From IMG/VR virus record IMGVR_UViG_3300025115_000005: a stretch of DNA of 64,000 nucleotides. The stretch is one strand, 5' to 3'. This DNA comes from an uncultured virus (IMG/VR IMGVR_UViG_3300025115_000005). Lineage: Duplodnaviria > Heunggongvirae > Uroviricota > Caudoviricetes. Numbering within the stretch: position 1 is the first letter of the stretch; each line of letters starts with the position of its first letter. The notes below the pieces were generated by a model. It searched no databases and was not told the DNA's origin. It was given only the letters and a program-made list of their open reading frames with translations. The translations under genes and the position numbers were made by a program. Below, one piece after another: positions 6,548-53,400 of this stretch.

Positions 6548-7867
6548 ATGGCATATAATTGGGACTTAAATGAAAAGAAATTGATGGATGCTATTGACAT
6601 CGAGGGGCATATTGCTAAACATATTAATGTTAATCGTCACGAAGCAACATGTCCTTTTCATGATGATCATAATCCATCACTAAAGATTAGTTCTAAAAAA
6701 CAAGTGGCAAAATGTTTTGCTTGTGGATGGTCAGGTAATGTTGTTAAGTTTCATATGAATTACAATGGTATGAATAAGCAGAAGGCTATGGAACAACTTG
6801 CTGAAATGTATGGAGTATCTATCGAACCATTTACAGATAGCGGACCTACTATAGATTACTCATGGACAAAACATTATGATGAGGCATCTAAGTTCTTTAA
6901 CTTTTACCTTATGAATACAGAGCCTGCTGTTAATTATTTAAGTGAACGTGGCATTAGCGATAAGACTATTGAAGCTTATCGTTTAGGTATATGCCCGAAG
7001 AATAAATCCTTAGAGGCTATGCTTAGAGACAAGTATCCTGATGATAACATTCTTGATAGTGATTTGTTTTACCCTAAGTCAGGTGATCCTAAATATGGTA
7101 GTCGTATTGTCTTTCCTTTAATGAATCATTATGGTACAGCTGTGATTGGATGGGCTGGGCGTTATGTGTCTCCTGTTATTGAAGATAAAAAGCTTGTAGC
7201 TTTTACTAGCAACATACCTAATGATTCTATATCTAAATATCTTAATACAATGGATGATCATTCACATCAAGGTGGATACTTAAAAGATTATTACCTTTAT
7301 GGTTATCATATTGCTAAAGATTATACTACAGTGTATGTTGTTGAAGGATATATGGATGTTGTATCTATGTATCAAGCAGGCTATCAGAATACTGTAGCCG
7401 TTGGTGGTACAAGTTTAACTCCTAATCAATTCAACAAGATATCTAATAAAGGTATTGTCCTTTCTTTTGATGCTGATGATGCAGGTGTTAAGGCCGCTCT
7501 TCAGATTACAATTAAGTATTGGTATAAAGATTTTAGATATGGGGTTTATCCTATTGGTGCTAAGGATGCGAATGACGCTCTTCAAAAAGGTGATGGCACT
7601 ATCACTATGCGTATCTTAAACCTTGTTGATTACATTCAGTATGTCTGTGAAGAGCTCAAGATTTTTGATGGATTATCTACAGATGATAGAATCAAATGGT
7701 ATAAAGCTATTCTTATGACAGCTGAGGCTATCGATCCATCGTCAGATCAAGGATACATCCTTAAGGCTATGATTAAGAAGTATTTATTATGGTACATGGG
7801 GCTTCAAGAACCTATGCTTACAAGTTTTGTTACAGATGCATTAGCTAAACTAGGAGGTAAGCTATGA
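6548..7867 (+). CDS. dnaG: DnaG-type DNA primase (CHC2 zinc finger + TOPRIM)
   Basis: CPFHDDHNPS...CFAC zinc finger; RIVFP, KYLN, VVEGYMDV and FDADDAG motifs; KDAND. Confidence 0.93.
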   Translation: MAYNWDLNEKKLMDAIDIEGHIAKHINVNRHEATCPFHDDHNPSLKISSKKQVAKCFACGWSGNVVKFHMNYNGMNKQKAMEQLAEMYGVSIEPFTDSGPTIDYSWTKHYDEASKFFNFYLMNTEPAVNYLSERGISDKTIEAYRLGICPKNKSLEAMLRDKYPDDNILDSDLFYPKSGDPKYGSRIVFPLMNHYGTAVIGWAGRYVSPVIEDKKLVAFTSNIPNDSISKYLNTMDDHSHQGGYLKDYYLYGYHIAKDYTTVYVVEGYMDVVSMYQAGYQNTVAVGGTSLTPNQFNKISNKGIVLSFDADDAGVKAALQITIKYWYKDFRYGVYPIGAKDANDALQKGDGTITMRILNLVDYIQYVCEELKIFDGLSTDDRIKWYKAILMTAEAIDPSSDQGYILKAMIKKYLLWYMGLQEPMLTSFVTDALAKLGGKL

Positions 7868-10076: not shown

Positions 10077-10090
10077 CTTGCCCTCTTATT
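10053..10090. terminator. Intrinsic terminator between convergent transcription units
   Basis: Hairpin AGGGTGAGTCAT-T-ATGACTTGCCCT, with an A-tract on the left (U-tract for the minus strand) and a T-rich right flank. Confidence 0.8.
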
Positions 10091-11615
10091 CTTTTCCAAT
10101 CAAAGTGTAAGCTCTCAGGTACTGGGATGCAACCGACGCTGCATTTTTTAAAGCAGAGTCTACGCTTGTATAACTGTCTACTATCCCAAGCTCTACTAGA
10201 TTACCGAATTCATTTGCTTTTACATCGACGCCGAATTCCACGTTAGTAGGATGTTTCTTATCCTCTTTACGGATTACGCTGATGTGTTGTTTCAACCCAG
10301 CGTTTTCTAGTATAGTAATGAGCGGTGCTTCGAGTGCTCTTCTAATATTTTTATTTCTGTATGACTGTGCTAAGATAAACAGTGGTTTACCTGAGCCAGC
10401 TACAAGGCCATCTCGAATAGCACATTTCACGGCACCGATTGCATCATCTAGCTTTAGTCTGATTGTTTGATACTCAGTTACAGTAGCAGCAACCAGCTTA
10501 ATCTTAGTAACACCTTTCTCAAGAGCACCAAGTCTTCTCATCAATGCGTTATAGCGAACGACGCCGATGGTATACTGGTCTTTCTTGAGTTCTTTTTTAT
10601 AAGCTTTGATTCTATCCGAAGCATCTCCTGATGTTCCTGTAATAATGGTTTGGTCTTTAGAGATAACAATCTTCTTAGCGTAACCACAATCACCGTACTT
10701 GTATTCAAGAGAGTTGAGTGCAGCATCCTGAATCTTTCCTCCCGTCTTAGCAGCTAAGTCCAGGAACAATTCATCTTCGAACTCTTCGTTGAGGAACACA
10801 AATTGAAACTGGAATTTATTTTCTACTAGGATTTGAAGGAGGTACTGCAGTGACTCCGGATTAAACTTAGGGGTGATGATGAAGACGAAGGGTAAACCCA
10901 TACCTTCTGATGGGATGGACTCAAAGAATTTTTGAATGTTCATCTGAGATAAGAACCCTGCAGATAACATGACGATGGTTGCGTCTTCGAAGACAGTCTT
11001 TCCATTGCCATCATTGGTGAAGCTTCTCATTACCTCAGAGAAGTAACCGGATTCAAGAACCATACCGTCTACGTGTTCAACTAAAGTCTTGGTCCCTTCA
11101 CGATCATGTTCGATGATCACATTCATGTCATCACCTGCAGCTTTGTGAGCTTCATATACAATGTCTCCGATGACGGGGATCTTTGTAGAGATGGTAGCAA
11201 GGGACTTAAGAAGTTCCTCTGTTGGTTCGATCTTGAAATTCTGTAGTTCTTTGCGTGTATCCTCTATTAAATTCTGCACATAATCTGCAGCTTGTTGGGG
11301 ATGTATTCCTTGTTTGATAGTACTGAGCCCAAACTTGTAGAGTTCATTGACCATGAGGATGGTAAGTGTAGTGCCATCATAAGCCTCCCGTTCAGTGGTG
11401 GCTGCAGCTTCGATGACGGATACTGCGATGGAACGTTTGATCCCCTTCATATTAAAACATTCTCTGGCTACCGTGACACCATCATCTGTTAAGGTCGGAC
11501 GGTCCATATCTTTATGGATCATGGCCAGTCGTCCCTTAGCTCCCATCGTTGGTGTAACCAGATCAGAGACTTCCTGGAAAGTTTCCTTAATCAGTTTGAT
11601 ATCTTCACGGATCAT
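10086..11615 (-). CDS. groEL: Phage-encoded group I chaperonin (GroEL/Cpn60-like)
   Basis: TMGAKGR (cf. TLGPKGR), TDDGVTVA (cf. TNDGVTIA), DGTTLT, GMVLESGYFS, LDDAIGAVKCA, GIVDS...ALKNAASVA; lacks the GGM tail. Confidence 0.92.
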   Translation of the reverse strand: MIREDIKLIKETFQEVSDLVTPTMGAKGRLAMIHKDMDRPTLTDDGVTVARECFNMKGIKRSIAVSVIEAAATTEREAYDGTTLTILMVNELYKFGLSTIKQGIHPQQAADYVQNLIEDTRKELQNFKIEPTEELLKSLATISTKIPVIGDIVYEAHKAAGDDMNVIIEHDREGTKTLVEHVDGMVLESGYFSEVMRSFTNDGNGKTVFEDATIVMLSAGFLSQMNIQKFFESIPSEGMGLPFVFIITPKFNPESLQYLLQILVENKFQFQFVFLNEEFEDELFLDLAAKTGGKIQDAALNSLEYKYGDCGYAKKIVISKDQTIITGTSGDASDRIKAYKKELKKDQYTIGVVRYNALMRRLGALEKGVTKIKLVAATVTEYQTIRLKLDDAIGAVKCAIRDGLVAGSGKPLFILAQSYRNKNIRRALEAPLITILENAGLKQHISVIRKEDKKHPTNVEFGVDVKANEFGNLVELGIVDSYTSVDSALKNAASVASQYLRAYTLIGKE

Positions 11616-12590: not shown

Positions 12591-14903
12591 TTAGTTCCCT
12601 TGTTTAACCCAAGTGGATCCGTTCCATTCTAAGTCAACCCATTTTTGTCCAACTGTAGGATTTGAAGGAGGTTTTCCGTAGCTGTATCCTGATTGGGCTG
12701 CGGAAGTAATTACATTACTTGCCACTTGATCAGAGTTATCTCCTTTAAACATTTTGTAGAAGGTTGAGGTATAGAATCCTCCTTTAGTTAATTCTTTATA
12801 GTTTGAGTTGTTAATGACAATTTGAGATTTAGTGTTAGCTGCAATGTTATCTCCTGTAACCTTATAGAATTCTTTATTAATGTAAACGTAGTAAGAAGGA
12901 TCTCCTTTACCATAGTTCATATTAATGATGGAGTATTCTGGTAAGGCACCTGTTCTTGCCATGGTAAGAATTTCATTAACATAAGTCTCTTGACCGGAAC
13001 CAGCCTTATTATTATCTTTAAAGGATCCAAAGTCAGATGACTTAGTTCCAGTAGATAAAGAAATTTTTTGTCCATGGCCTAATGCATCTATAATGGTTGA
13101 TAGAAAAGCGGTGGACTCATTTACATATGTCTGACTTGAACCGGTTCCACCATCAGTGCTAAATCCATGTCTGTATACGGTATAGTTAGGTACAGAGTTT
13201 AATGTACTACCTATAATATTTACGTTACTAGTGTTTGCTGGTAGTGTTGCATCATAAAGATTGCCGTTGTAGTACCATAAATATTTAGCGTCCCCCTTAC
13301 CATAGTTGACATTGATATAAGTATCATCTGGAATTAAACCCATACTGATAGCTGTTTGGATTCCATTATTCAAAGCTGTTTGATCAGCTCCTTGTTTAAA
13401 GGAGGCACTTAAATTATCCATGGTTTCTTTAAAGTTAAGTGCATCTTTATTAGTGAAGGCTGTAGAGTTAACCAAATTTGGATTATTATAGACAGCTTCC
13501 ACCTGTTCCTTGCTCCATTGATTAGTGAGGAATTCTAACCAGGCTCCGTTCTTATCTTTAAGATAAATTATGGATTCAGTTTCTTGCATATATCCTAATG
13601 GTGCATCAGTTATAGGTTCTCCAGTCGATTCGTCGATTAACTGACCATCCACAATTTTAAATCCTGTACCTGTACCTATAATAGGTGGTTTATAAGCAGC
13701 ACCCATTGGATCTATATAGTCAGGAAGAATTCCTTCGGTGTCTAGTGCAGCGTACTTATTAATAAATTCAAGTACTTTATCTACACCCCCATCTTCAATG
13801 TGAGCTGCTAACCATTCATCGTATGACATGTCCTTAGCTTCAGCCCAAGCAATTTGCTGGTTAGCTAAAGAGTCTAACACTTCTTCATAGTATGCTGGAT
13901 TATTTTTAAAGTAATCATAAACTTTGGCCATGTCCTCAGAGTTTGAGCTGTTAGGATTAATACCTACTAGAGTCATGACACCTTTACCGGGTTCTCCTCC
14001 TGACCATACTTCTACTGGAATCTTATAGTCATCAAGGATTTCACGACGAGCTTCTTCTGTAGCGGTGATGCGTTCCCATTGGTATTGTTCCAGCTGTGCT
14101 TCGTTCATTTCATATTGTTGTTCGTTACGAGTAAGGTTTGCAATACGGATTAAACCCTGGACGCCTTCAGTATCTAAACCTTCAGCTCTATACCACGCCT
14201 CGATCTGATCTACAATATGGCGTGCTCTATTGTCTGCTGGGTTTGCTAACACTGCAGCTTGAGCAGCTTGGTATTGAGTGATCATCTCACGATTCTCCGG
14301 AGATATATATTCACCAACGAGTTGAGCTCTCTGAATCTCTAGGTTCTGAGCATCCATATAGTACTGATGAGCCAGCTGATTCATGTTGAGTTCATAATTT
14401 AAACGAGCAATAGAAAGTTGAGACTCGTATCCCATCTTCTGTAGCTCTAGTTGGCCATACATATCAGCTTGAATCTGAGCTTTTAAGAATTCCATCTGCA
14501 TGTTAGAGTCTAATGCATATCCTCCGGTCCAACCCATGCGTTCTTGTGCCTGGTTAGCTGAGTATTTACCTAGCATCGCTTGAGTTTGTCCAAGGTTAGC
14601 ATTCTTCTCAATGTTTTGACGAGAGGCTAAAGCGTTCTGCTCTGCAGTAGCGATGTCAATTTGTTGCATAATAGATGCACCTTCAACAGCTTTCTTATCC
14701 CAAGAAAAACTATCTGTTGCTGGTGTAAGATCACCCACTGGTGGCTGAGCTGCTGCTCCTCCGGCTACAACAACTCCTCCAGCATCATTAGCTGGTGGTG
14801 GGGTAGGATTAGGGTATCTCACTTCAGGGAAGATTCCATTTTCAATAACACTAGTAGATGTTGGATCATCAGTTAGTGCTTGTATTTCTTTAGTGGCTGC
14901 CAT
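12591..14903 (-). CDS. Probable internal virion / ejection protein
   Basis: Q/A/M-rich helical N-terminal half typical of podovirus internal proteins, and an N/S/T/G-rich C-terminal half with a duplicated NYGKGD module. Function is inferred. Confidence 0.5.
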   Translation of the reverse strand: MAATKEIQALTDDPTSTSVIENGIFPEVRYPNPTPPPANDAGGVVVAGGAAAQPPVGDLTPATDSFSWDKKAVEGASIMQQIDIATAEQNALASRQNIEKNANLGQTQAMLGKYSANQAQERMGWTGGYALDSNMQMEFLKAQIQADMYGQLELQKMGYESQLSIARLNYELNMNQLAHQYYMDAQNLEIQRAQLVGEYISPENREMITQYQAAQAAVLANPADNRARHIVDQIEAWYRAEGLDTEGVQGLIRIANLTRNEQQYEMNEAQLEQYQWERITATEEARREILDDYKIPVEVWSGGEPGKGVMTLVGINPNSSNSEDMAKVYDYFKNNPAYYEEVLDSLANQQIAWAEAKDMSYDEWLAAHIEDGGVDKVLEFINKYAALDTEGILPDYIDPMGAAYKPPIIGTGTGFKIVDGQLIDESTGEPITDAPLGYMQETESIIYLKDKNGAWLEFLTNQWSKEQVEAVYNNPNLVNSTAFTNKDALNFKETMDNLSASFKQGADQTALNNGIQTAISMGLIPDDTYINVNYGKGDAKYLWYYNGNLYDATLPANTSNVNIIGSTLNSVPNYTVYRHGFSTDGGTGSSQTYVNESTAFLSTIIDALGHGQKISLSTGTKSSDFGSFKDNNKAGSGQETYVNEILTMARTGALPEYSIINMNYGKGDPSYYVYINKEFYKVTGDNIAANTKSQIVINNSNYKELTKGGFYTSTFYKMFKGDNSDQVASNVITSAAQSGYSYGKPPSNPTVGQKWVDLEWNGSTWVKQGN

Positions 14904-14904
14904 C

Positions 14905-15447
14905 TTACATTCCTCCTCCCATCATAGCTTGAATCATAGCTGGATCCACAGCCTCTTCTTCTTCTGGTTCTTCAGGAGTTTCTTCAACTGGTGGACGTTT
15001 AGGTTTCTTAACCATAGGGTTATCTTCTTCCATCCCCATCTCAGCTGCTTGATCAGGTAGCACCTTAGCGTTTCTGGGATCAGTTAAACGTTTAATAACC
15101 TTCCGGTTACGGGGGTTCTGTTCGTTTAGAATTTTTTCTTTTTCCTCTTCGATGTTAGGACGATCAAACTCTCCGGTCTCTGGGTTAAACCCTTTGGCCA
15201 TAGCAGACTTAACAGTCATACGTCCACGAGGAGTCATGATAGTGTATTCACCTGGGTGTTTTTTAACATCATCAACTAGGGTTTCTTTATACTTACCCTT
15301 AGGTTCGATGACTTTGCCAACGTTGATCTTGATCACGTCAGCTGTGTTTGTAAATTCTGGTTCTTTTTTACCTACTAACTTACCTTCTGAAAATTCTCCT
15401 CCAGCAAGTAGGGTAGCTAATTCTTTTTGATCTAATTCCACAGGCAT
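14905..15447 (-). CDS. Hypothetical protein (charged, low-complexity C-terminus)
   Basis: 180 aa; AGGAGG RBS. Confidence 0.75.
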   Translation of the reverse strand: MPVELDQKELATLLAGGEFSEGKLVGKKEPEFTNTADVIKINVGKVIEPKGKYKETLVDDVKKHPGEYTIMTPRGRMTVKSAMAKGFNPETGEFDRPNIEEEKEKILNEQNPRNRKVIKRLTDPRNAKVLPDQAAEMGMEEDNPMVKKPKRPPVEETPEEPEEEEAVDPAMIQAMMGGGM

Positions 15448-15449
15448 GA

Positions 15450-15680
15450 TTAGGCCTCCTTTAAGATATTTAGATCTTTGTCTAAGTATCCTTCTTTAAT
15501 CGCTCGCTGTGCTTTCACACGGTGCTGATAATACTCAGGTCTGTAGTCACCACGTTGGATGATACGTTGGATGTACCTAGTATTCTCTAGCATTTTTTCT
15601 TTAGGAGTAAGCTTACGACGTGGATAATCTCGTCTGCCTTTTCTTACGTTTATGCCCAGGATTCTATTTAGTATATTCAT
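15450..15680 (-). CDS. Small basic hypothetical protein
   Basis: AAGGAG RBS precedes the ATG at 15680 (MNILNRILG...); the longer start at 15701 overlaps the -10 box. Confidence 0.7.
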   Translation of the reverse strand: MNILNRILGINVRKGRRDYPRRKLTPKEKMLENTRYIQRIIQRGDYRPEYYQHRVKAQRAIKEGYLDKDLNILKEA

Positions 15681-15699
15681 AGCACCACTCCTTGGCATC

Positions 15700-15740
15700 A
15701 TTATACCATGTAGACAAAAAATATGTCAATGTGATATAAT
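15700..15740. promoter_or_regulatory. Overlapping divergent sigma70/sigmaA promoters
   Basis: Minus strand: TTGACA (15724-15729), 18 bp, TGgTATAAT (15700-15705). Plus strand: TAGACA (15711-15716), 18 bp, TGaTATAAT (15735-15740). Confidence 0.75.
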
Positions 15741-15760: not shown

Positions 15761-16387
15761 ATGAGTGATAGAGTATTTCAACCCATGATCCTGCAAACGA
15801 AGCAAGAAATTGAGAAAGCAATTAAATCAGGTAAGATAAAGAACACTAAGTATCATCTACTAGATAAAGAACAGAAGATGTTTGTGGAGTTGATCTGCTT
15901 TGCAGACTATACTCCTGAGCAAGCAATGCGTGTAATGAAACCCCGAGTAGGGAATGCACGTGTCGCTGCGAATCGAATGCTTGCTGTTCCCGAAGTTACA
16001 GAGACGATCAATGATCTGACAGTAACGAAGGATAAAGCATTTGAAGCAGAACTTTCTAGCTCAAGTCAGATGGCCTTAGCTAAAGCCAAGTATATCATGA
16101 CCACTACACAGGATGAAGCTATAGCATTAGCAGCAGCAAAAGTTATATTAGATCTATCGAAGAATACGAAGAAGAAGAATGAGAAAGCAGATGTCGAAGT
16201 TAATAACATTACATACAAGATTGAAGTGGCCACCCTTCACGACAAACCTGTAACGGACTTCGAACCGAAAGATAAAGTTGTTATCGATGTGGAGCCAGAA
16301 GCTACGCTGGATGCGGATATCAATCCTGATACCGGGATGCCTTATGTACTCCACTATGAGGGAGTTAATCTATATAAAAAAGAATAA
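15761..16387 (+). CDS. terS: Terminase small subunit (probable)
   Basis: LDKEQKMFVELI...EQAMR...ARVAANRMLAVPEV resembles the TerS HTH N-terminus (LTxKQxxF...A...A.RLL..P.V); helical middle region ending IALAAAKVILD. Confidence 0.65.
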   Translation: MSDRVFQPMILQTKQEIEKAIKSGKIKNTKYHLLDKEQKMFVELICFADYTPEQAMRVMKPRVGNARVAANRMLAVPEVTETINDLTVTKDKAFEAELSSSSQMALAKAKYIMTTTQDEAIALAAAKVILDLSKNTKKKNEKADVEVNNITYKIEVATLHDKPVTDFEPKDKVVIDVEPEATLDADINPDTGMPYVLHYEGVNLYKKE

Positions 16388-16393
16388 AATGTG

Positions 16394-16422
16394 TTGACAT
16401 TTTGTCCGTTATATAGTATAAT
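16394..16422 (+). promoter_or_regulatory. Consensus sigma70/sigmaA promoter
   Basis: TTGACA (16394-16399), 17 bp, TATAAT (16417-16422): a perfect consensus. Confidence 0.9.
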
Positions 16423-16428
16423 ATAAGT

Positions 16429-16506
16429 AGATGAGGAGACCTTTTGTCTCCGAGTTGTAGGCCCAGAACCAACGTACACATCCCCCCCAGTGCGTTGGTT
16501 TTTTAT
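16429..16506 (+). ncRNA. Putative ~75-nt small RNA (two hairpins, C-rich loop)
   Basis: Bounded by the perfect promoter and an intrinsic terminator (AACCAACGTAC...GTGCGTTGGTT-TTTT); 5' hairpin GGAGAC-CTTTT-GTCTCC; no substantial ORF. Confidence 0.65.
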
Positions 16507-16514
16507 TTATACCT

Positions 16515-16553
16515 ATAAAGAAAAAGAACCGGAGTGACAAGTTCCGATTCTCT
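16515..16553 (-). terminator. Intrinsic terminator for the minus-strand replication operon / structured RNA
   Basis: Minus strand AGAATCGGAA-CTTGTCA-CTCCGGTTCT followed by TTTTCTTT. Confidence 0.75.
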
Positions 16554-16786
16554 TTCCGAAAGGAAGGTGTGCATGGGCCAAGAGCTCAATCCCTTGATAG
16601 GAGGCCTTCAGCTTACGGCGGCAGCCTCTCCATTGTAGTTGATAGGGGGGATAAGTGGCAGTACCCCTTTACCGTAATTATGTGAGGTGCTTGGGGACAC
16701 CTCTACCCATGCTAGGTTATGGAAACTGGCCTAATCTTTAGGAGATCCGGAATGCCAGCCGGTTCTGAGCTTTGGCCAGAAGCTCA
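16554..16786 (-). ncRNA. Putative highly structured RNA (multi-hairpin, family unassigned)
   Basis: GC-rich non-coding stretch in an AT-rich genome with at least six hairpins and an 8-bp long-range helix GCAUGGGU/GCCCAUGC; G-U pairs in that helix and one hairpin favour the minus strand. Confidence 0.55.
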
Positions 16787-18727
16787 TACAATGTCTGCTC
16801 GTAGTGCGATACGTTCCTTTTCGTTGATAACGATCTTGAAATTGTTCATAAAGTCTTCTTCAAACTTAGTAACTCTGACATGCTTGAAGGAGTTCTTATC
16901 GCACCACTCTTGGTACTCATAGTATAGGTTACGTAGTTCCTTACCTACAATCTTATTAACATCGTTCTTATAAGAGTCATAGAACCATGATAGGATGGAG
17001 CTATTATCTGTCTTATATTTTTGAACCATATCTTTGACTGCTTGAGGAATCGTAAACTCTTTAGTAACTTCTAATACTCTGTTAATTGCAATCACTGCTT
17101 TGTATGCGATGTAATCAAGGGCTTTTTGACTGAGCAGTTCACGTTTGAACGATGCCCCATCAACACGGCTTACCTTTGACAAGTCTGCAGTGAATGGTAT
17201 GATAGGAAATCTACGGTAGAATCCGTCGCTTGTATCCGGAGTTCTTGGTAACACGTTTGCTGAGAAGAACATTGTGGCAAACAATGACTTATCATAGGCA
17301 TCTTTGTATTTACGTTCTACCATGATTTCTTCGCCGGCAATAATTGATTTAACCATGTCGGAATCCGAGATAGGTGTGCTACTTATATCCCCTGCCAACG
17401 ATGCTAACTTACCATCCAAAGCACTTGCTCTGAAGTTGTTCGCTAGATCTTTAAACGATATACTTGTGGTATTTTGTTTACCTAAGATGTTACGAATAAC
17501 TTCAAGGTATGTCGACTTACCATTACGCCCTGTCCCTACCATGATGAATGCACTCTGGAGTTCACTCGTCTTAAGCATGGAGTAGCCAATGGCTTCGTAT
17601 AGTAGTTCTTCTATATCGGCATCCCCTTGTGTAGCTGTATGGAAGAATTCATCTGCTGTTTTTTGGTACGCATGAGGGTTGTAGTTAACATTAAGTTTGA
17701 TAGTTTCCATATGGGTTTCATCCATAGGGTTAAACTCCATTGTTAACACATCAAGTATACCATTTTTAAATACGATTGAGTATGGATCCTGGTCAAATTC
17801 TACAGGTTCCATGACTAAGAAATTATCAATGTATTTTAAAGCTTCGGTCTTTTGATAATCTTTTAGTATAGGTACAAGTCTGGTCATATATCCTAGTAAG
17901 TATTCTGGTCTGTGTTCATATATCTTTTCTTGTTCATTGTAGTGGTACAGTAAATTTGTTTTCTTATCTCTTTTTATATTACACTTATTGATCATGTATT
18001 CTCCGAGCACGTTATGAAGGAATGTATTACCATCAAAGAATATTTTGTTATTGATGTAGGCTGCATTCTTTAATACTGCTTGTAGTTCATCGTCTGTTAA
18101 TGGACTTTGCATAAAATATTTATTTATAATCTTCGCTACTTCTTCACGGGTTACAACATTGAATTGATTTATCTTTTTAATTAAAGGTTCGAAGGATGTG
18201 TAAGGCGGAACTAATGCATCCGTTGTGTCAGGTCTAGATTGTTTATGGATGGGCTCTAACCAATCAGGTAGGAAGCCTATCTTTTCGCCTGCATAAACAA
18301 GAGTGTAAGATTCTAAGAACTTTGATGTGCAATGCTTTGTCTTGAAAGGTAGAGTTATAATTGTTTTAGTTCTTGAACTACTTAAAGTATCAGCTAAGAC
18401 ACCACATGCTAGGGTGTTATTAACCGTGGCTTTATCAAAGAAACTTTGTGCCAGGATCTGTAACCCATTAGGTGTTTCAATTACAATTACATTCTCTTTT
18501 CTTTCTTCAATAACCTCGAGTACTCTATACTCTTTGATTTCGATAACGATATAGTTTGGTGGAATAATTAAACCCAACTCGAATAGTGGATCTGACTGTG
18601 CGATAGGTAGTAGATCTGTAATCGTACGGCCAACAAGTCTGCTGCCTACAACCTTTCCATTACGGAGAGGTGTATACCATGGCTCGTTATAGCTATTGAT
18701 TGCTGAATGGAATTGTCGTAGATCCAT
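16784..18727 (-). CDS. P4/D5-family primase-helicase (SF3 helicase, divergent N-terminal primase-like region)
   Basis: D5_N-like FKNGILD; Walker A GTGRNGKST; ERKYKD; FSANVLP...DGFYRR. Confidence 0.88.
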   Translation of the reverse strand: MDLRQFHSAINSYNEPWYTPLRNGKVVGSRLVGRTITDLLPIAQSDPLFELGLIIPPNYIVIEIKEYRVLEVIEERKENVIVIETPNGLQILAQSFFDKATVNNTLACGVLADTLSSSRTKTIITLPFKTKHCTSKFLESYTLVYAGEKIGFLPDWLEPIHKQSRPDTTDALVPPYTSFEPLIKKINQFNVVTREEVAKIINKYFMQSPLTDDELQAVLKNAAYINNKIFFDGNTFLHNVLGEYMINKCNIKRDKKTNLLYHYNEQEKIYEHRPEYLLGYMTRLVPILKDYQKTEALKYIDNFLVMEPVEFDQDPYSIVFKNGILDVLTMEFNPMDETHMETIKLNVNYNPHAYQKTADEFFHTATQGDADIEELLYEAIGYSMLKTSELQSAFIMVGTGRNGKSTYLEVIRNILGKQNTTSISFKDLANNFRASALDGKLASLAGDISSTPISDSDMVKSIIAGEEIMVERKYKDAYDKSLFATMFFSANVLPRTPDTSDGFYRRFPIIPFTADLSKVSRVDGASFKRELLSQKALDYIAYKAVIAINRVLEVTKEFTIPQAVKDMVQKYKTDNSSILSWFYDSYKNDVNKIVGKELRNLYYEYQEWCDKNSFKHVRVTKFEEDFMNNFKIVINEKERIALRADIV

Positions 18728-48809: not shown

Positions 48810-50417
48810 TTACAAGTCAAAGATATTATCAAGTGCGATAGAGTAATTATCTTCCGCATCTGCTTCAAGCTCTTCTAGTTCTTTTTCTACAAGTCTAATC
48901 AATTTAGGTCTATTATCTTTAACAATAATGGTGTCAGAACCTATAGGTGCAAGTTCATCTGAGTAATAGATCAGGAATAAACCATAGTCATCTAGTGCAT
49001 GATCACGACATCCTTCGGCTATCTTTAGTGGATAAAATTCGTCGTGCACAGCTTCATCAAATTCTTCTATTAGGTTGGGGCATAGCTCAGAGATTCTAAA
49101 TTTATGAACATTATCTTCACCTACAATAGTTGTGGATGAATGGATTTTATCGTTACGCATCTCTACGTTTCCTTTACCAGATAAAACTGATACAGGGTTT
49201 AAACCCCAGTGTTCAAACACATCTGATTTAGTTTCGCCTATTACTTTGCCACCTTCATCACGATAGCGATCTCCTGATCTAAACATATCATGCGGTAGAC
49301 AAGTAGCACTGATGTACATGCCTTCACTGCGGTTTGCTAGAACTTTAACAAAATCTTCAAAGATTAATTCTTGACCATACTGTTCTTGGAAAGTGAGTAC
49401 TCGTTTGTCCTGAGTTACTATATGCCAGTGTGCTGAGTGGTATGATGGTTTGTATCCCCAGTCCACCGATATAAAGATTTCGTAATCCATGTTAGATTCT
49501 TCTATTTCTTTAAGAGCTTGTCTTGTTTGTAAAGCAGCAAGTCTTTGTTTTTCTTTAAGATCAAACATCTTACCAGCTACAACATCCCAGTTACCCCAGA
49601 TGTCCATCTCCTGCATATGCTCAGGTTGCATAAGTAGCATAGCTACATAGGACTTAGCAATATAAGGATTATCTTTATAAGATGCTGGAATGAATCTAAC
49701 ATTAACAGGAATCTTTTGTTCTGCTCTACCATCTTCTCCAGGTAACACCATGTTATACTTGTGGTCTTTCGTAGTAAGTGGAGTATTATGAATAGGATCG
49801 TAAGATGTAACGGTAGGATCAATGAACATTTTCTTAACCCACTTATGTCCCTTGCCTCCAGGGTTAGCACCAAAGACTACTTTAGTAGGAATCTGATATT
49901 GCTTACCTGTATACTTATTAGTGAGCAAAGGTGAACGCACAATCGTGAGTAAGTATTCAATTGTCTTCTGATCATGCTTAGTAATTTCATCGACAGCTAA
50001 GTATTGAAATTCAAATCCTTGGAATGCTTTAGCTTCTTGATAGTTTGCTACACGTTGAAATGTAATATAAGATCCATTAGGAAATACAATAGATCTTCCT
50101 GGGTAGAATGAACTTGAGTTTTCTTTATAGTCGTATAGCTTGTGCCCTTGCATTTCCTGAGGGAATAGCGAAGGCAACTTATCTAAGAATGATTGACGAA
50201 CTGAGCCTAAGCTTTCACGAATGATAATAGCTTTAGCTCCTGGATAAGTTTGGCAAAACATGAAGGCATCACCGAGGATGCCCCCTGATTTACCTGCACC
50301 ACGTGCACCACCGAACAAGGTAATTGATATCCCGTCGGTGGCAAGAGGTGCGTTGTGTAATAAGACTTGCTTAGCATGTGGTTTATAATTAGGAATGATA
50401 ACTATTTGCTGAGGCAT
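48810..50417 (-). CDS. terL: Terminase large subunit
   Basis: PHAKQ, GGARGAGKS Walker A, AVDE Walker B, ANPGG, SVDWG nuclease motif, DHALD. Confidence 0.92.
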   Translation of the reverse strand: MPQQIVIIPNYKPHAKQVLLHNAPLATDGISITLFGGARGAGKSGGILGDAFMFCQTYPGAKAIIIRESLGSVRQSFLDKLPSLFPQEMQGHKLYDYKENSSSFYPGRSIVFPNGSYITFQRVANYQEAKAFQGFEFQYLAVDEITKHDQKTIEYLLTIVRSPLLTNKYTGKQYQIPTKVVFGANPGGKGHKWVKKMFIDPTVTSYDPIHNTPLTTKDHKYNMVLPGEDGRAEQKIPVNVRFIPASYKDNPYIAKSYVAMLLMQPEHMQEMDIWGNWDVVAGKMFDLKEKQRLAALQTRQALKEIEESNMDYEIFISVDWGYKPSYHSAHWHIVTQDKRVLTFQEQYGQELIFEDFVKVLANRSEGMYISATCLPHDMFRSGDRYRDEGGKVIGETKSDVFEHWGLNPVSVLSGKGNVEMRNDKIHSSTTIVGEDNVHKFRISELCPNLIEEFDEAVHDEFYPLKIAEGCRDHALDDYGLFLIYYSDELAPIGSDTIIVKDNRPKLIRLVEKELEELEADAEDNYSIALDNIFDL

Positions 50418-53400
50418 TATTCATTCCTCCAATCGTGTTGATGATCATAGATAGTTCTATTCTTAGGTGCTTGAGTTCTTACTTTATTAGTTCCAAGATT
50501 CTGTCGTTTAATATAAGGACGTCTTGCTCCTAGTTTAGAACTGATGCCAGATGCTTTACTTCCTGTTGCTGATGTTAGTGGAGGCACGAATGTCTTTCTA
50601 CCTAGGTATAGTTGTTTCATCTTGTCATCGTTATAACGAGTGTTGCCTCTATTATATACTCTAGGATTATGGAAGTACATTCTCTCATCATAGTTTCTAT
50701 TGTAGTGTCTTGGTAAATAATCCTTAACATAACTGTTCTTATAGTTTGTGGCTGCAGTGTCTGTAAGTAATTCTTTTAACACACTATAGTTTTCAGCTTC
50801 ATGAATAATAGCATCGTCTAATACTGCTTTCTCTTTATCACTTAGGTTTTCATAAAACTCTGTAGGATCTTTAATTAAGCTTAGTCTATGTGAGATAGAA
50901 TTAGATCTTAGTGAATAAAGAATCTCATTTTTGCCTGCCCCATTTTGAATAGCTTCGTTGATTAGTCCATAGATAACAGAAGGTTTTTGTTCTAAGTTCA
51001 TTGCTTTACGAATTTCTTTAGCCAGTTCATAGGATTGTTCTGAATCAAAGTTGTCACTTCCAAAGTATTCTGTTCCAGCAAGTTCTCTTTCGTACTTGAT
51101 ATAACCGTTGACTGATGATAGTGCTTTGTAGTAATTCTTAAGTTCTGCTTTGTAACCTTTGCTATTGCCTATCTCTGCAGATAGTGCTGCTTGTAAGGAT
51201 TTACCTAAGCGTTCAAGGAACACAGGATCTTCTGTATCTAGTTTAGTATATCTCCAGCTGTCTACCATTGCTGTAGCTCCAGCAATACCAATAACAAAGC
51301 CCATGCTCTTACGTGCTAAGTTATCTTCCCATGAGTAATTTGTTTTAACTGGAGTTCCTCCATACCAATCGGTGTTAGTTGCTACCTCATAAGGAACTTT
51401 GAATACTGGATTAACTTTACCTCCAATAAGTTCCATGAATAATCCTTGTAACTTTTTACCTAAAGTTTTGTTTGAAGAAGCCTTGAATGGTTCGATAAAC
51501 ATTTGTTCTAGATTTTGTAGTGGATTTGCGGATTGCTGGTAGGATATATAAGGTCTACCTAATAACGCAGTCTGAACTGGTTTGAACATAACTTGATCTT
51601 GCTTCCATTCTTCTTCGGTGTCTTCGTCTACGCCATACATGTCAGCAACCAGAGATGCAACCAAGTTAGTTACTAGTGTGGCTCCAATTAAACCTACTGC
51701 ATTACGAGCTAATGTTTTAAGACCATCGCTGTCTACTTCACCTAACCAAATATCTTTAAGAATACGTCCGGTTGTACGTGTAGTATCCATACCCCAACGA
51801 GCTAATGCTAGTGGGAATGTCATAAACATTGCCCATCCTTGTGTATACTTAGCAACGAAAGGGAATCCTCCTGGTGCACCTAGAGTATTTTCTACTACTT
51901 TCATTGCTTTCATTTCATTACTCTTCAATCCATCGATTGCTTCTTTCTTGTAGTAGGAGCTACCATATATTGGTTTGTTTTGTTCAAATGAATCAAGTAC
52001 TGCTAGGTACCCAGCGTAACGCCCAGCTAGTGTTTGAACTTGGAATGCTTTGTCTGTCATATTAAAGTAAGGATCTAAGAACTTAGGAGTCTTAACTTTA
52101 AAGTCCATAGAAGCTACGTCTAATCCTTTAGCTGTTCTATCTGTTGGGCTTAAACCAACAACATCTAAGAAGTTGTAAAGTTTAGCATACTGCATATTCC
52201 CGTTAACATCTTTTATATCGAAGATCTTACCATTAGATTGAAGTAAGGCAGAGAATTCTCTCATAGCCTGAGGAGCGTATAAGGCTACCTTAGGTGTAAT
52301 GGTTGACATCATTGCTAAGTCAAATGCTGAGAAGTTAATCATTCTATTAATAAGCTGTGGTACAGATGACATAATAAGTTTAGTAGTTTGAGAAGAAATT
52401 TCTTTCAGTAACTTCATTACTTTTCCAGGAACTTTAGCAGTAAAGAAATGCTTGTCTAGATGATCTGCAGTTGTTGTATCAAGCATATAAAGTTTTCCTG
52501 TAACAGCAGCCATTGCTAAACGTTCTTCAAAGGTATTACCTCCTGTAAGAAGTTCAACGTTACGGTTAATAAAACTTGTATCGATGTTTGCTATAGGTCT
52601 ATAGAATCCCATGCTTGCGTCTGTAGGAAATTTCTGACCATATTCATTAACTAAAGTAGCATTGTTTGTCTTAGCTAAGTACATAGCTCTTGATGCAATA
52701 GAGTTCACGGCATCCTTGTTTTCTAGTATAGCTTCGTATTTAAGGTCTTCAATTGATTCTTCTATTGCAATGAGTTCTCTAAGCAGATCTTTATCTGATA
52801 CATTTTCACTTGAATCGTATCGATCATATAAATCCTTAAGTGATTCAAATTTAGTTCCTTCAGGATCAAGTGACATTAGGTCTGTCTTTAAACCATTAAG
52901 CTGTAAGTACATAGAGTTTAAGTCTACGTTTCTATTCATTGTGCTGAATCCTTTAACTCTCTGATTAAATGCTATAGCAAGCTGACTGTATTTCCATTTC
53001 TTTTTAGGATCAGGCGTTGCAGTTTTAATTGCATCATCTAAAAGTTTTCTAGTTTCTTCCATGACTACCGTGTTGTTTAAAGCTCCAATGTCTTTTAAGT
53101 TATCAGACATGTGCTTAGCTGCACCTACCTTAGCAATGTTATCTGCAATAATATCTATAGAGTTATAGAAGTCATACTTTTTATTGCCAAGATATTCAGC
53201 TACTTTAAAGTTACCTTCTTCTTTATGGAATCCGAAGATTGTTTTAAGAGTGTGTATATAATCACCCTTCTTTAAATTATTATTACGAGAAACAATAGGG
53301 CTTAAGATGTGGAATAGAGAAGGAGATACTTGACCTGTTTCTTTTGCAATACGTTCTCCAACTTCTCCGATACGAGTGACAAGTTGATTCATAGCCATAG

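What the first reader, a model, noticed from the sequence alone, without database searches (positions are those of the whole stretch)
16554..16786. Unassigned, densely structured ~230-270-nt RNA with potential kissing loops, next to terS
Seen on the minus strand after the primase stop: hairpins UGAGCUU-CUGGCCA-AAGCUCA, CCGG-CUGGCAUU-CCGG, UAGG-CCAGUUUCCAUAA-CCUA, GAGGUG-UCCCCAAG-CACCUC, GGGGUA-CUGCCACU-UAUCCC and GAGGC...GCCUC. The last three are enclosed by the helix GCAUGGGU/GCCCAUGC, and a terminator follows. Several loops share CUG(G/C)C(A). Some loops are mutually complementary (UGGCA with UGCCA; CUGGCC with GGCCAG), allowing kissing loops or pseudoknots. The GC-rich composition contrasts with the genome. 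Inferred possibilities: a new ncRNA or ribozyme, a packaging-RNA-like element (phi29 pRNA uses kissing loops, and terS is adjacent), a protein-sponge or anticodon-loop decoy, or ssDNA hairpins recognised by the vRNAP or primase.
Basis: partly seen in the sequence, partly recalled or inferred. Interest (0 to 1): 0.72.

Follow-up and report, generated by a model that had tools for sequence, protein, structure and literature searches.

The report
Orphan structured RNA after phage primase
A GC-rich, folded stretch just after a phage primase gene is most likely a real, conserved RNA module that matches no catalogued RNA family and also occurs in an apparently unrelated phage, but what it does is still unknown.

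Summary
The hairpins, the enclosing helix and the hairpin plus U-tract are all present on the minus strand at 16517-16786.

Folding energy alone does not stand out from the rest of the genome. Three other signals do:
- The 151-nt core is the most GC-rich window of the 37 %-GC sequence.
- In about 93 %-identical relatives, the 142 nt spanned by the enclosing helix P1 (16571-16712) carry 2 substitutions. The flanking coding DNA shows 6-12 %.
- A second, divergent copy lies next to a tRNA gene in a 63-kb metagenome contig (L088) that shares nothing else detectable with the window.

The two copies share an invariant 13-nt junction and an invariant hairpin loop. These two blocks are complementary to each other, which suggests a pseudoknot. 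The hairpin's outer stem shows a compensatory change.

Five phages with 43-51 % identical primases lack the element. It matches no Rfam family, and no tRNA or tmRNA was found.

These are terS adjacency, phi29 pRNA-like kissing loops, an anticodon decoy and ssDNA hairpins. The 5' hairpins that carry the "kissing" loops are the least conserved part.

Verdict: a credible candidate for a new phage RNA family, resting on only two lineages. The mechanism is inferred, not shown.

The parts
16766..16786 (-). H1 hairpin UGAGCUU-CUGGCCA-AAGCUCA. It contains the primase stop codon UGA (16786-16784).
   Evidence: In relatives, 16771 A>G (RNA sense) turns a U-A pair into U-G, so the pair is kept.
16747..16762 (-). 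H2 hairpin CCGG-CUGGCAUU-CCGG.
   Evidence: The loop position 16757 varies in run X2.
16713..16733 (-). H3 hairpin UAGG-CCAGUUUCCAUAA-CCUA. It is weak (4 bp).
   Evidence: The loop position 16717 and the linker positions 16735/16736 vary.
16705..16712 (-). P1 5' strand GCAUGGGU. It closes the conserved domain.
   Evidence: present in both the minimum-free-energy fold and the centroid. The CM alignment to L088 keeps 6 of 8 pairs, 2 of them with changes on both sides.
16684..16703 (-). H4 hairpin GAGGUG-UCCCCAAG-CACCUC.
   Evidence: The loop position 16695 varies in relatives. The match to L088 is poor.
16668..16680 (-). Junction block UAAUUACGGUAAA. It is identical in the second phage. UUACGGU (16677-16671) is the proposed 5' half of a pseudoknot.
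   Evidence: 13 of 13 identical in L088 at 1466-1478. It is complementary to the H6 loop with 6 Watson-Crick pairs plus 1 G-U, -9.1 kcal/mol; 0.56 % of 20,000 shuffles of this junction block do as well.
16648..16667 (-). H5 hairpin GGGGUA-CUGCCACU-UAUCCC, with one G-U pair. It is an insertion specific to this lineage.
   Evidence: It is absent from L088.
16601..16628 (-). H6 hairpin. It has a 6-bp outer stem and a 16-nt interior (GCCGCCGUAAGCUGAA, 16622-16607) that is invariant between the two phages.
   Evidence: 29 nt at 93 % identity with L088. The outer stem changes from G-C to A-U, a change on both sides. No substitutions are listed in relatives.
16579..16596 (-). H7 hairpin CAAGGG-AUUGAG-CUCUUG, stacked directly against P1.
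   Evidence: The loop position 16585 differs in all four runs laid.
16571..16578 (-). P1 3' strand GCCCAUGC.
16558..16569 (-). Single-stranded CACCUUCCUUUC between P1 and the terminator. It looks like an anti-Shine-Dalgarno sequence; that resemblance is recalled, not tested.
   Evidence: Related motifs ACCUCCUUUC occur in the spacers of relatives L003, L004 and L007.
16517..16556 (-). Terminator-like hairpin (core AAUCGGA-9 nt-UCCGGUU) with U-tract CUUUUUCUUU. It is the likely 3' end of the RNA.
   Evidence: The scan tool flags the same hairpin only on the + strand, probably because the minus-strand reading has a 9-nt loop (the scan accepts 3-8).

Best explanation
The stretch encodes a structured RNA module that has been kept by selection and belongs to no catalogued family.

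**Transcription (inferred, not shown).** It is transcribed on the minus strand as the 3' end of the primase transcript. It starts at the stop codon and ends at a hairpin plus U-tract near 16517.

**Functional unit.** The working part is not the whole 230-270 nt. It is the roughly 140-nt domain closed by helix P1 (16571-16712), which holds H4, a 16-nt junction, H5, H6 and H7.

**Core.** The core consists of the invariant junction UAAUUACGGUAAA and the invariant H6 loop GCCGCCGUAAGCUGAA. I propose these pair with each other (UUACGGU with GCCGUAA) to form a pseudoknot.

**Proposed mode of action (inferred).** The module acts as an RNA by presenting this rigid, sequence-invariant core to a specific partner. 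That partner could be a protein, a small ligand or another RNA. It behaves as an accessory part exchanged between unrelated phages.

**5' hairpins.** H1-H3 are a looser, fast-evolving leader.

**Shown versus inferred.** Shown: the anatomy, the GC island, the low substitution rate, absence from cousin phages, and a homologue elsewhere. Inferred: transcription, the pseudoknot, and partner binding.
For: 1. **GC island.** The 151-nt domain has 54.3 % GC in a 37.1 % window. None of 6,385 windows is as GC-rich.
2. **Low substitution rate.** In the roughly 93 %-identical contigs of runs X2 and X6:
   - 16513-16786 carries 8 listed substitutions in 274 nt.
   - The P1 domain carries 2 in 142 nt.
   - ORF208 carries 12 in 200 nt, and the primase 3' end 8 in 64 nt.
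   - A soil contig (X8) keeps 16577-16676 with 4 differences while its flank no longer aligns.
3. **Substitutions respect the fold.** Seven of the 8 fall in loops or linkers of the model. The eighth keeps its pair as U-G. About 44 % of positions are paired. By my own arithmetic, 1 or fewer hits in stems has p of about 0.07.
4. **A second copy.**
   - L088 shares 13 of 13 nt of the junction and 27 of 29 nt of H6, in the same order and orientation.
   - Model R1, built from the window alone, finds it at 32.1 bits, E = 5.6e-7.
   - Nothing else in the 3 kb of L088 matches the window.
5. **Pair changes.** One G-C to A-U change on both sides occurs in the H6 outer stem. There are 5 such pairs in the fitted alignment; 21 of 500 shuffles reach that number, and slid controls give 0-2.
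6. **Candidate pseudoknot.** The two invariant blocks are mutually complementary, -9.1 kcal/mol. 0.56 % of shuffles do as well.
7. **Strand.**
   - G-U pairs occur in P1, H5, H6 and H7.
   - Minus-strand z is -2.4 to -2.5, against +0.7 for the plus strand.
   - In both phages the element runs in the same direction as its neighbouring genes and lies upstream of a terminator-like hairpin.
8. **Not coding.** Stop codons break all six frames. The spacer between the two conserved blocks differs by 20 nt between the phages.
Against: - Only two divergent lineages are known, so covariation is thin. The alignment behind the pair counts was fitted to the model.
- The equivalent of P1 in L088 is ambiguous. 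Three alternatives lie within about 1.2 kcal/mol of each other, and none is in the minimum-free-energy fold. H4 aligns poorly, and H5 and H7 are not shared.
- Folding energy is not exceptional for this genome: 7.6 % of sampled windows reach z <= -2.5.
- The unconstrained fold of the full stretch prefers other long-range pairings by 13 kcal/mol.
- The pseudoknot partners never vary, so the pairing cannot be tested by covariation.
- No RNA data exist: no listed holder of the sequence is on record as RNA.
- The substitution table shows 40 of 89 rows. Differences seen only in low-depth runs could be hidden.
- Low divergence could also come from a recent recombinational sweep.
- Five related phages lack the element, so it is dispensable for this type of phage.
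Confidence: 0.45

Rival explanations
1. It is a cis-acting regulatory RNA. It could be a riboswitch-type aptamer or a processive antitermination element, comparable to HK022 put RNA (recalled, not tested). It would sit just upstream of an intrinsic terminator and decide whether transcription from the replication genes reads through. In the window, read-through would reach the next minus-strand genes (15701 down to 10086). In L088 it would reach tRNA-Glu and the ORFs beyond.
For: - In both phages the conserved domain lies upstream of a hairpin plus U-tract. The distance is about 15 nt in the window and roughly 40-80 nt in L088, depending on which P1 is right.
- Co-directional genes lie beyond the terminator in both: minus-strand ORFs at 15450-15701, 14905-15447 and 12591-14903, and tRNA-Glu plus ORFs in L088.
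- A junction closed by P1 with invariant junction nucleotides is the usual aptamer layout (established knowledge).
Against: - By eye, I found no convincing alternative pairing between the P1 3' strand and the terminator stem in the sequence.
- In the window a + strand gene (15761-16387), a consensus + strand promoter and two + strand terminators lie between the element and the next minus-strand genes. Read-through would therefore collide with opposing transcription.
- The element follows a gene rather than preceding one.
- Relatives with the same gene order manage without it.
Confidence: 0.2
2. It is a captured fragment of a larger ornate RNA. L088 carries the shared core inside about 1.2 kb of non-coding, highly structured sequence. 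The window's copy would be a sub-domain picked up by illegitimate recombination and carried as a passenger. Alternatively, it could work as a minimal version of that large RNA.
For: - L088 480-1680 has no ORF of 100 aa or more under code 11, and under code 4 only one 107-aa frame that needs TGA read as Trp. It has no Rfam match except the flanking tRNA.
- Only about 140 nt of L088 aligns to the window.
- The element is an insertion specific to this lineage: 397 nt between primase and the next ORF, against 84-281 nt in five relatives. It is absent from their whole records, 0 of 5.
Against: - A passenger fragment should drift. Instead, the P1 domain changes 4-8 times more slowly than the flanking coding DNA.
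- The window's copy has its own closing helix and extra hairpins (H5, H7), and the isolated domain folds into one well-defined structure.
Confidence: 0.12
3. It is a DNA-level element. It could be a replication origin or protein-binding site with CTGGC-type repeats next to the primase-helicase gene. It could also be a set of ssDNA hairpins used by a virion RNA polymerase or the primase, or a packaging site.
For: - It lies next to the D5-type primase-helicase gene.
- CUG(G/C)C recurs in four hairpins.
- The conservation data cannot by themselves tell DNA constraint from RNA constraint.
Against: - Several helices depend on G-U pairs, which become A-C mismatches on the other strand. Only the minus strand folds better than its shuffles.
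- One natural variant changes a pair to U-G.
- The CUG(G/C)C loops are the variable or unshared parts.
- Relatives with the same primase lack the element.
- In the 3 kb of L088 seen, it is flanked by a tRNA gene and ORFs of unknown function, not by a primase.
- The giant ORF has no family match, so a virion RNA polymerase is not established.
Confidence: 0.08
4. It is a phi29 pRNA-like packaging RNA that forms a ring through intermolecular kissing loops.
For: - Loop complementarities exist in the sequence: UGGCA with UGCCA, and CUGGCC with GGCCAG.
- Large phage-associated RNAs are reported to form homo-oligomers (PMC12286853; I saw only the search listing with the start of the abstract).
Against: - No Rfam family, which would include any pRNA model in the library, matches.
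- terL is 32 kb away, and the neighbouring ORF is not recognisably terS.
- The loop change at 16757 breaks the UGGCA/UGCCA match with no compensating change.
- H5 has no counterpart in the L088 alignment. H1-H3 lie outside the modelled domain, and only weak, unassessed local similarity lies upstream of it.
- Close relatives package DNA without the element.
Confidence: 0.03
5. It has no function. On this view it is a chance GC-rich spacer, and the short matches to L088 are coincidental.
For: - Folding z-scores lie within the genome's background.
- The 20-mer also hit 4 unrelated high-GC loci by chance.
- The gapped patterns gave only chance hits in bacterial genomes and other viral contigs.
Against: - L088 adds an exact 13-mer at the right place and in the right order, and it matches the model at E = 5.6e-7.
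- The GC extreme and the 4-8-fold lower substitution rate are not expected of a neutral spacer.
Confidence: 0.05

Closest known systems
GOLLD / ROOL-type large ornate RNAs of phages and prophages
   Same: - They are orphan, highly structured, phage-associated RNAs of unknown function.
- They are often found beside tRNA genes (recalled). The L088 copy sits just upstream of tRNA-Glu, inside about 1.2 kb of non-coding sequence.
- They are reported to form RNA-only homo-oligomers (PMC12286853; listing and start of abstract only).
   Different: - No Rfam model, GOLLD and ROOL included if they are in the library, matches the window or L088 even at E <= 10.
- The window's element is 140-270 nt, not 500-800 nt.
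- Oligomerisation has not been tested.
GC-rich intergenic structured ncRNA candidates in AT-rich genomes (GC/length intergenic screens)
   Same: It is an extreme GC island in an AT-rich genome, lies in a long non-coding spacer, and has a well-defined fold. The papers PMC8632094 and PMC11109978 describe such screens; I saw only the listing and abstracts.
   Different: Those screens were run on bacterial genomes. This element is in an uncultivated phage and sits at the 3' end of a transcription unit.
phi29 pRNA
   Same: It is a phage-encoded structured RNA of comparable size with complementary loops (recalled).
   Different: - No family match.
- The genome is at least 64 kb, with terL, portal, DNA polymerase and two primases. 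It is therefore not phi29-like.
- The complementary loops are not conserved.
Riboswitch aptamers and cis-acting antiterminator RNAs (HK022 put, EAR; recalled)
   Same: It is a multi-helix junction closed by P1, with invariant junction nucleotides, a likely pseudoknot, and an intrinsic terminator just downstream.
   Different: It follows a gene instead of leading one. No expression platform was found, and no known class matches.
Bacterial RNase P RNA (specificity-domain motifs)
   Same: The short strings ACGGUAAA and, in L088, CACAGAAAC recalled conserved RNase P regions. That was the lead.
   Different: The lead was tested and rejected.
- RF00011 finds nothing in the near-identical record G001, even at E <= 10.
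- cmscan of all families finds no RNase P model.
- Three real Clostridia RNase P RNAs show no similarity beyond shuffles, z <= 1.9.

Membership tests
Any Rfam 15 family (4,227 models) | A covariance-model score at or above the family's gathering threshold. | tested here: not met
   There are 0 matches in the whole window. At E <= 10 over 16350-16900 there are only three hits: atoC (20.5 bits against a threshold of 50, + strand, outside the element), SorY (18.9 against 111, on the terminator) and ncr1241.
tRNA / tmRNA | A cloverleaf or tRNA-like domain detectable by ARAGORN. | tested here: not met
   ARAGORN finds 0 genes in the window.
phi29-type pRNA | A match to the pRNA family model. | tested here: not met
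   No Rfam hit.
phi29-type pRNA | Conserved intermolecular loop-loop complementarity. | tested here: not met
   The complementary loops exist. However, 16757 U>C breaks UGGCA/UGCCA without compensation, and H5 is missing from L088.
phi29-type pRNA | A small phi29-like genome with the RNA placed beside the packaging genes. | tested here: not met
   The window alone is 64 kb. terL is at 48810-50417. The neighbouring ORF has no terS match.
RNase P RNA | A match to the bacterial RNase P covariance models, including conserved regions CR-I to CR-V. | tested here: not met
   RF00011 gives no match in G001 at E <= 10, while control genomes do match. There is no RNase P hit in the cmscans. There is no similarity to three real RNase P RNAs.
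GOLLD / ROOL ornate RNAs | A match to the family covariance model. | tested here: not met
   No hit in the window or in L088.
CRISPR-repeat mimic (RNA anti-CRISPR) | The hairpin sequence equals a CRISPR repeat that occurs in arrays elsewhere. | tested here: not met
   The invariant 20-mer occurs once per locus in 5 of 5 metagenome loci, never in tandem. Bacterial genomes were scanned only with a different, gapped pattern.
Riboswitch (generic) | A conserved aptamer together with an alternative-pairing expression platform upstream of the regulated gene. | tested here: inconclusive
   An aptamer-like junction and a downstream terminator are present. No antiterminator pairing was found by eye, and in the window the element lies at the 3' end of a gene.
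Intrinsic terminator (the 3' end of the element) | A GC-containing hairpin followed directly by a U-tract. | tested here: inconclusive
   A 7-bp core stem with a 9-nt loop followed by CUUUUUCUUU is seen on the minus strand. The scan tool calls the same hairpin only on the + strand.
Structured RNA with evolutionary support (general criterion) | Compensatory changes in helices across divergent homologues. | tested here: inconclusive
   There are 5 pairs with changes on both sides in a 2-sequence alignment fitted to the model. 21 of 500 shuffles reach this. One clean case lies in the H6 outer stem. Two lineages are too few.

The most novel reading that the evidence does not exclude
This is the first sighting of a new class of phage-borne functional RNA. 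It would be a compact pseudoknotted core, formed by the junction UUACGGU pairing with the loop GCCGUAA, kept letter for letter in otherwise unrelated phages. It occurs either alone, as here at the end of the primase transcript, or embedded in a roughly 1.2-kb ornate RNA beside tRNA genes (L088). Invariance of that kind is typical of ligand-binding or catalytic RNA cores. The module could therefore be a new aptamer, a new ribozyme, or a high-affinity decoy for a host factor that phages trade among themselves.
Probability: 0.3. Interest if true: 0.75.

Novelty: new variant of a known kind. Interest (0 to 1): 0.52.

Why it matters
Few orphan structured RNAs of phages are known, and some have proved unusual, for example large RNA-only assemblies. 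A small module with an invariant, probably pseudoknotted core that moves between unrelated phages would be a tractable new case. At about 140 nt it can be transcribed in vitro, probed, screened for ligands or self-cleavage, and solved. It also shows that the 3' ends of phage replication operons can carry accessory RNA cargo. Gene-centred annotation misses this entirely.

Tried and rejected
**Known-family searches**
- Rfam at gathering score and at relaxed thresholds on the window and on L088 found nothing relevant.
- The RNase P lead was rejected.

**DNA similarity searches**
- blastn of the element against 50,697 phage records and 72,556 plasmids: no match.
- blastn of the L088 RNA region against phages: only its tRNA-Glu part matched.

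**Searches through the primase protein**
- The single primase and P0004 as queries against viral contigs gave only the window's own record or nothing useful.
- The close-clade alignment A2 against metagenome contigs gave nothing.
- The 57-59 % identical primase clade (P0002-P0004) could therefore not be examined at the DNA level.

**Exact-pattern scans**

| Pattern | Collection | Result |
|---|---|---|
| 21-mer | viral contigs | own record only |
| 18-mer | viral contigs | own record only |
| gapped | viral contigs | 0 |
| gapped | viral contigs | 2 chance hits that R1 does not match |
| gapped | bacterial genomes | 5 hits |

- The 5 bacterial-genome hits look like coding sequence by my reading. 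R1 does not match them, so I treat them as chance. That pattern's gap (10-40 nt) was too short to catch window-like copies, whose gap is 49 nt.

**Searches around L088**
- An L088 neighbour protein against viral contigs: nothing.
- The L088 record is not held for whole-record searches.

**Covariance model R1**
- No match in 151 sampled genomes of the phylum that genome G003 belongs to. This is a sample, not proof of absence.

**Structure and repeats**
- The MAFFT/RNAalifold alignment of the two copies misaligned the invariant blocks and was discarded.
- The 21-nt direct repeat flanking the element would suggest a target-site duplication. However, an 11-of-13 match within 230 nt is expected about 0.3 times by chance (my arithmetic), so I dropped it.
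- No second copy exists in the window.

**Expression**
- No RNA holder is listed. The one run labelled RNA-Seq is judged probably DNA and covers only 16494-16642 and 16256-16403.

**Other**
- Earlier-findings look-ups returned nothing relevant.
- Full-text search for the invariant strings found one unrelated mite mitochondrial paper.
Full report
**Context**

The window is part of an uncultivated tailed phage.
- PHROG matches identify terL (48810-50417), portal, major head protein, tail fibre, DNA polymerase, helicase, a GroEL-like chaperonin and two different primases.
- A 4,501-aa ORF (50417-63922) has no Pfam or PHROG match.
- The gene ending at the finding (16784-18727, minus strand) is a D5_N/DUF5906 primase-helicase: phrog_864, E = 2.9e-103. 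Its best matches in cultured phages are only 24-31 % identical.
- The convergent 208-aa ORF (15761-16387, +) has no Pfam match even at E <= 5 and only two PHROG matches of unknown function at E 0.04-0.08. The claim "next to terS" is not supported.
- A near-identical 37-kb viral record (G001) carries the same element, 100 % identical over 501 nt.

**Observation**

All the hairpins and the enclosing helix are present on the minus strand. A script confirmed that all 50 pairs of the model are standard pairs. The primase UGA lies inside H1. A hairpin with a U-tract follows at 16556-16517.

Thermodynamic support is modest.
- z = -3.28 for 291 nt including the terminator.
- z = -1.5 for the 227-nt core.
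- z = -2.5 for the 151-nt P1 domain. Its minimum-free-energy fold, its centroid and the model all coincide.
- The plus strand gives z = +0.7.
- Against the genome's own background this is not exceptional: 7.6 % of 238 sampled windows reach z <= -2.5.
- The composition is exceptional: 54.3 % GC against 37.1 %, and none of 6,385 windows is as GC-rich.

**Relatives**

Primase homologues are plentiful, but DNA was obtainable only for phages with 40-51 % identical primases (L003-L008).
- In the five of these whose DNA reaches past the primase gene (L003-L007), the spacer between the primase stop and the convergent ORF is 84-281 nt, against 397 nt here. Those spacers hold only terminator-type hairpins.
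- The covariance model R1 finds nothing in the whole records of those five (0 of 5). The same model scores 198 bits on the window and 32 bits on L088.
- The element is therefore an insertion specific to this lineage.

**Closer relatives, from public runs**

Eleven runs from 8 studies hold parts of the stretch. Four were laid.
- Contigs of X2 (bioreactor) and X6 (freshwater) span the region at 90-95 % likeness.

| Region | Listed substitutions for X2 |
|---|---|
| 16200-16399 (ORF208) | 12 in 200 nt |
| 16400-16512 | 12 in 113 nt, plus many indels |
| 16513-16786 (terminator + element) | 8 in 274 nt |
| 16571-16712 (P1 domain, within the row above) | 2 in 142 nt |
| 16787-16850 (primase 3' end) | 8 in 64 nt |

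- No substitution is listed between 16586 and 16694.
- A soil contig (X8) keeps 16577-16676 with 4 differences, while its flank no longer aligns at 80 %.
- Seven of the 8 substitutions lie in loops or linkers of the model: 16757, 16735, 16736, 16717, 16695, 16585 and 16569. The eighth (16771) converts U-A to U-G in H1.
- Two of them (16735/16736) and 16757 break helices of the unconstrained minimum-free-energy fold. 16585 breaks that fold's long-range helix.
- Five of the 8 fall in the 74 nt of H1-H3. The 5' hairpins, which carry most of the "kissing" loops, are the least constrained part.
- Caveats: the table shows 40 of 89 rows, contigs hide rare variants, and X2 and X6 are related to each other.

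**A second lineage**

An exact 20-mer from the H6 loop hit 5 metagenome loci. Four are high-GC chance matches of 20-24 nt. The fifth, L088, is different.
- L088 comes from a 63-kb contig; the locus has 37 % GC.
- It extends to 29 nt at 93 % identity and also holds the 13-nt junction UAAUUACGGUAAA exactly, in the same order and orientation.
- R1, built only from the window, aligns L088 1434-1572 end to end at 32.1 bits, E = 5.6e-7.
- Nothing else in the 3 kb of L088 resembles the window, at either DNA or protein level.
- The flanking L088 ORFs have only weak PHROG matches of unknown function.
- In L088 the element sits at the end of about 1.2 kb without a convincing ORF under code 11 or code 4. 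It is followed by a terminator at 1652-1669 and by tRNA-Glu(CUC).
- No Rfam family other than tRNA matches L088.

**What is shared and what is not**

- *Shared:* the junction block, and H6 with its entire 16-nt interior. The H6 outer stem changes from G-C to A-U.
- *Not shared:* H5 (window only) and a local hairpin in L088. H4 aligns poorly.
- *Ambiguous:* the long-range helix in L088. Three alternatives lie within about 1.2 kcal/mol of each other.
- *Pair counts:* on the model-fitted two-sequence alignment, 5 pairs change on both sides. 21 of 500 shuffles reach this, and slid controls give 0-2. This is suggestive only.

**Candidate pseudoknot**

The two invariant blocks are complementary. UUACGGU (16677-16671) pairs with GCCGUAA in the H6 loop: 6 Watson-Crick pairs plus one G-U, -9.1 kcal/mol. 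Only 0.56 % of 20,000 shuffles of the junction block do as well. It is also the best 7-mer partner for that loop anywhere in the domain. Because neither block varies, covariation cannot test the pairing. Even so, it offers a simple reason why exactly these two blocks are frozen.

**Interpretation**

The most economical reading is a functional RNA module of about 140 nt. It is transcribed with the primase mRNA and ends at the terminator. Its invariant, probably pseudoknotted core is recognised by some partner. It is accessory and exchanged horizontally, since cousin phages lack it and an apparently unrelated phage has it.

The main rival is a cis-regulatory role at the downstream terminator. 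This fits the position upstream of a terminator with co-directional genes beyond it in both phages. However, no expression platform was found, and in the window an opposing gene and a consensus promoter lie in the way.

I rate the following lower, for the reasons given under rival explanations:
- a passenger fragment of a larger RNA
- a DNA-level site
- a pRNA-like ring
- chance

The CRISPR-repeat-mimic idea fails because the 20-mer never occurs in arrays. The RNase P lead, which came from recalled motif resemblance, fails the model searches and a direct comparison with three real RNase P RNAs.

**Novelty**

No match was found in any of the following:
- Rfam 15
- 50,697 phage records
- 72,556 plasmids
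- IMG/VR pattern scans, which returned only the window's own record
- 151 sampled bacterial genomes
- the full-text library searched for the invariant strings

A topical literature search returned general screens for structured ncRNAs and the cryo-EM study of GOLLD/ROOL/OLE. I saw only listings and the starts of abstracts, and nothing there describes this element.

The evidence rests on two lineages, so I call it a credible candidate for a new RNA family, not an established one.

Noticed in passing
window 16394-16512 (+ strand): A perfect sigma-70 consensus promoter, TTGACA-17-TATAAT (12 of 12), lies at 16394-16422. It is followed by an 85-nt stretch (16428-16512) that folds into two hairpins. 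The second has a C-rich loop (CAUCCCCCCCAG) and a U7 tail; z = -4.97. This looks like a separate small RNA gene facing the element. It has a weak sub-threshold atoC RNA hit, 20.5 bits against a threshold of 50. In relatives X2 and X6 the two promoter hexamers are unchanged, while the RNA body carries many substitutions and indels.
   Followed up: partly
window 16558-16569 (-); L003, L004 and L007 spacers just after the primase stop: An anti-Shine-Dalgarno-like string sits between two hairpins in the spacers of several relatives. It reads CACCUUCCUUUC here and ACCUCCUUUC in L003, L004 and L007. In the relatives it is preceded by TATAAT directly after the primase stop. On the opposite strand it reads as a strong ribosome-binding site. 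In the window it is followed by a 21-codon ORF (16573-16638, MGQELNPLIGGLQLTAAASPL). By my reading of the sequences, similar ORFs of about 20 codons follow in L004 and L007 but not in L003. Its meaning is unknown.
   Followed up: partly
L088 480-1680: This is about 1.2 kb without a convincing ORF under code 11 or 4 and with no Rfam match. It contains T-arm-like segments (GGUUCAAGUCC near 541-555 and GGGUUCGACUCCC near 782-797) that ARAGORN does not call as tRNAs. It may be one large ornate RNA or a decayed tRNA cluster.
   Followed up: partly
window 50417-63922 (-): A 4,501-aa ORF directly upstream of terL has no Pfam or PHROG match at all. Its size recalls N4-type virion RNA polymerases, but that is not shown.
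   Followed up: no
window 10086-11615 (-) and 6548-7867 (+): The phage encodes a GroEL-like chaperonin (phrog_5725, E = 1e-68). It also encodes a second primase of a different PHROG family (phrog_6444), besides the D5-type primase-helicase.
   Followed up: no
window 16766-16786 and 16568-16588: A 21-nt imperfect direct repeat (76 % identity, 198 nt apart) brackets most of the element. It could be a trace of the insertion event. By my arithmetic a match of this quality is expected about 0.3 times by chance in 230 nt.
   Followed up: partly
window 15761-16387 (+): A lone + strand ORF of 208 aa is embedded between two long arrays of minus-strand genes. It has no significant family match.
   Followed up: partly
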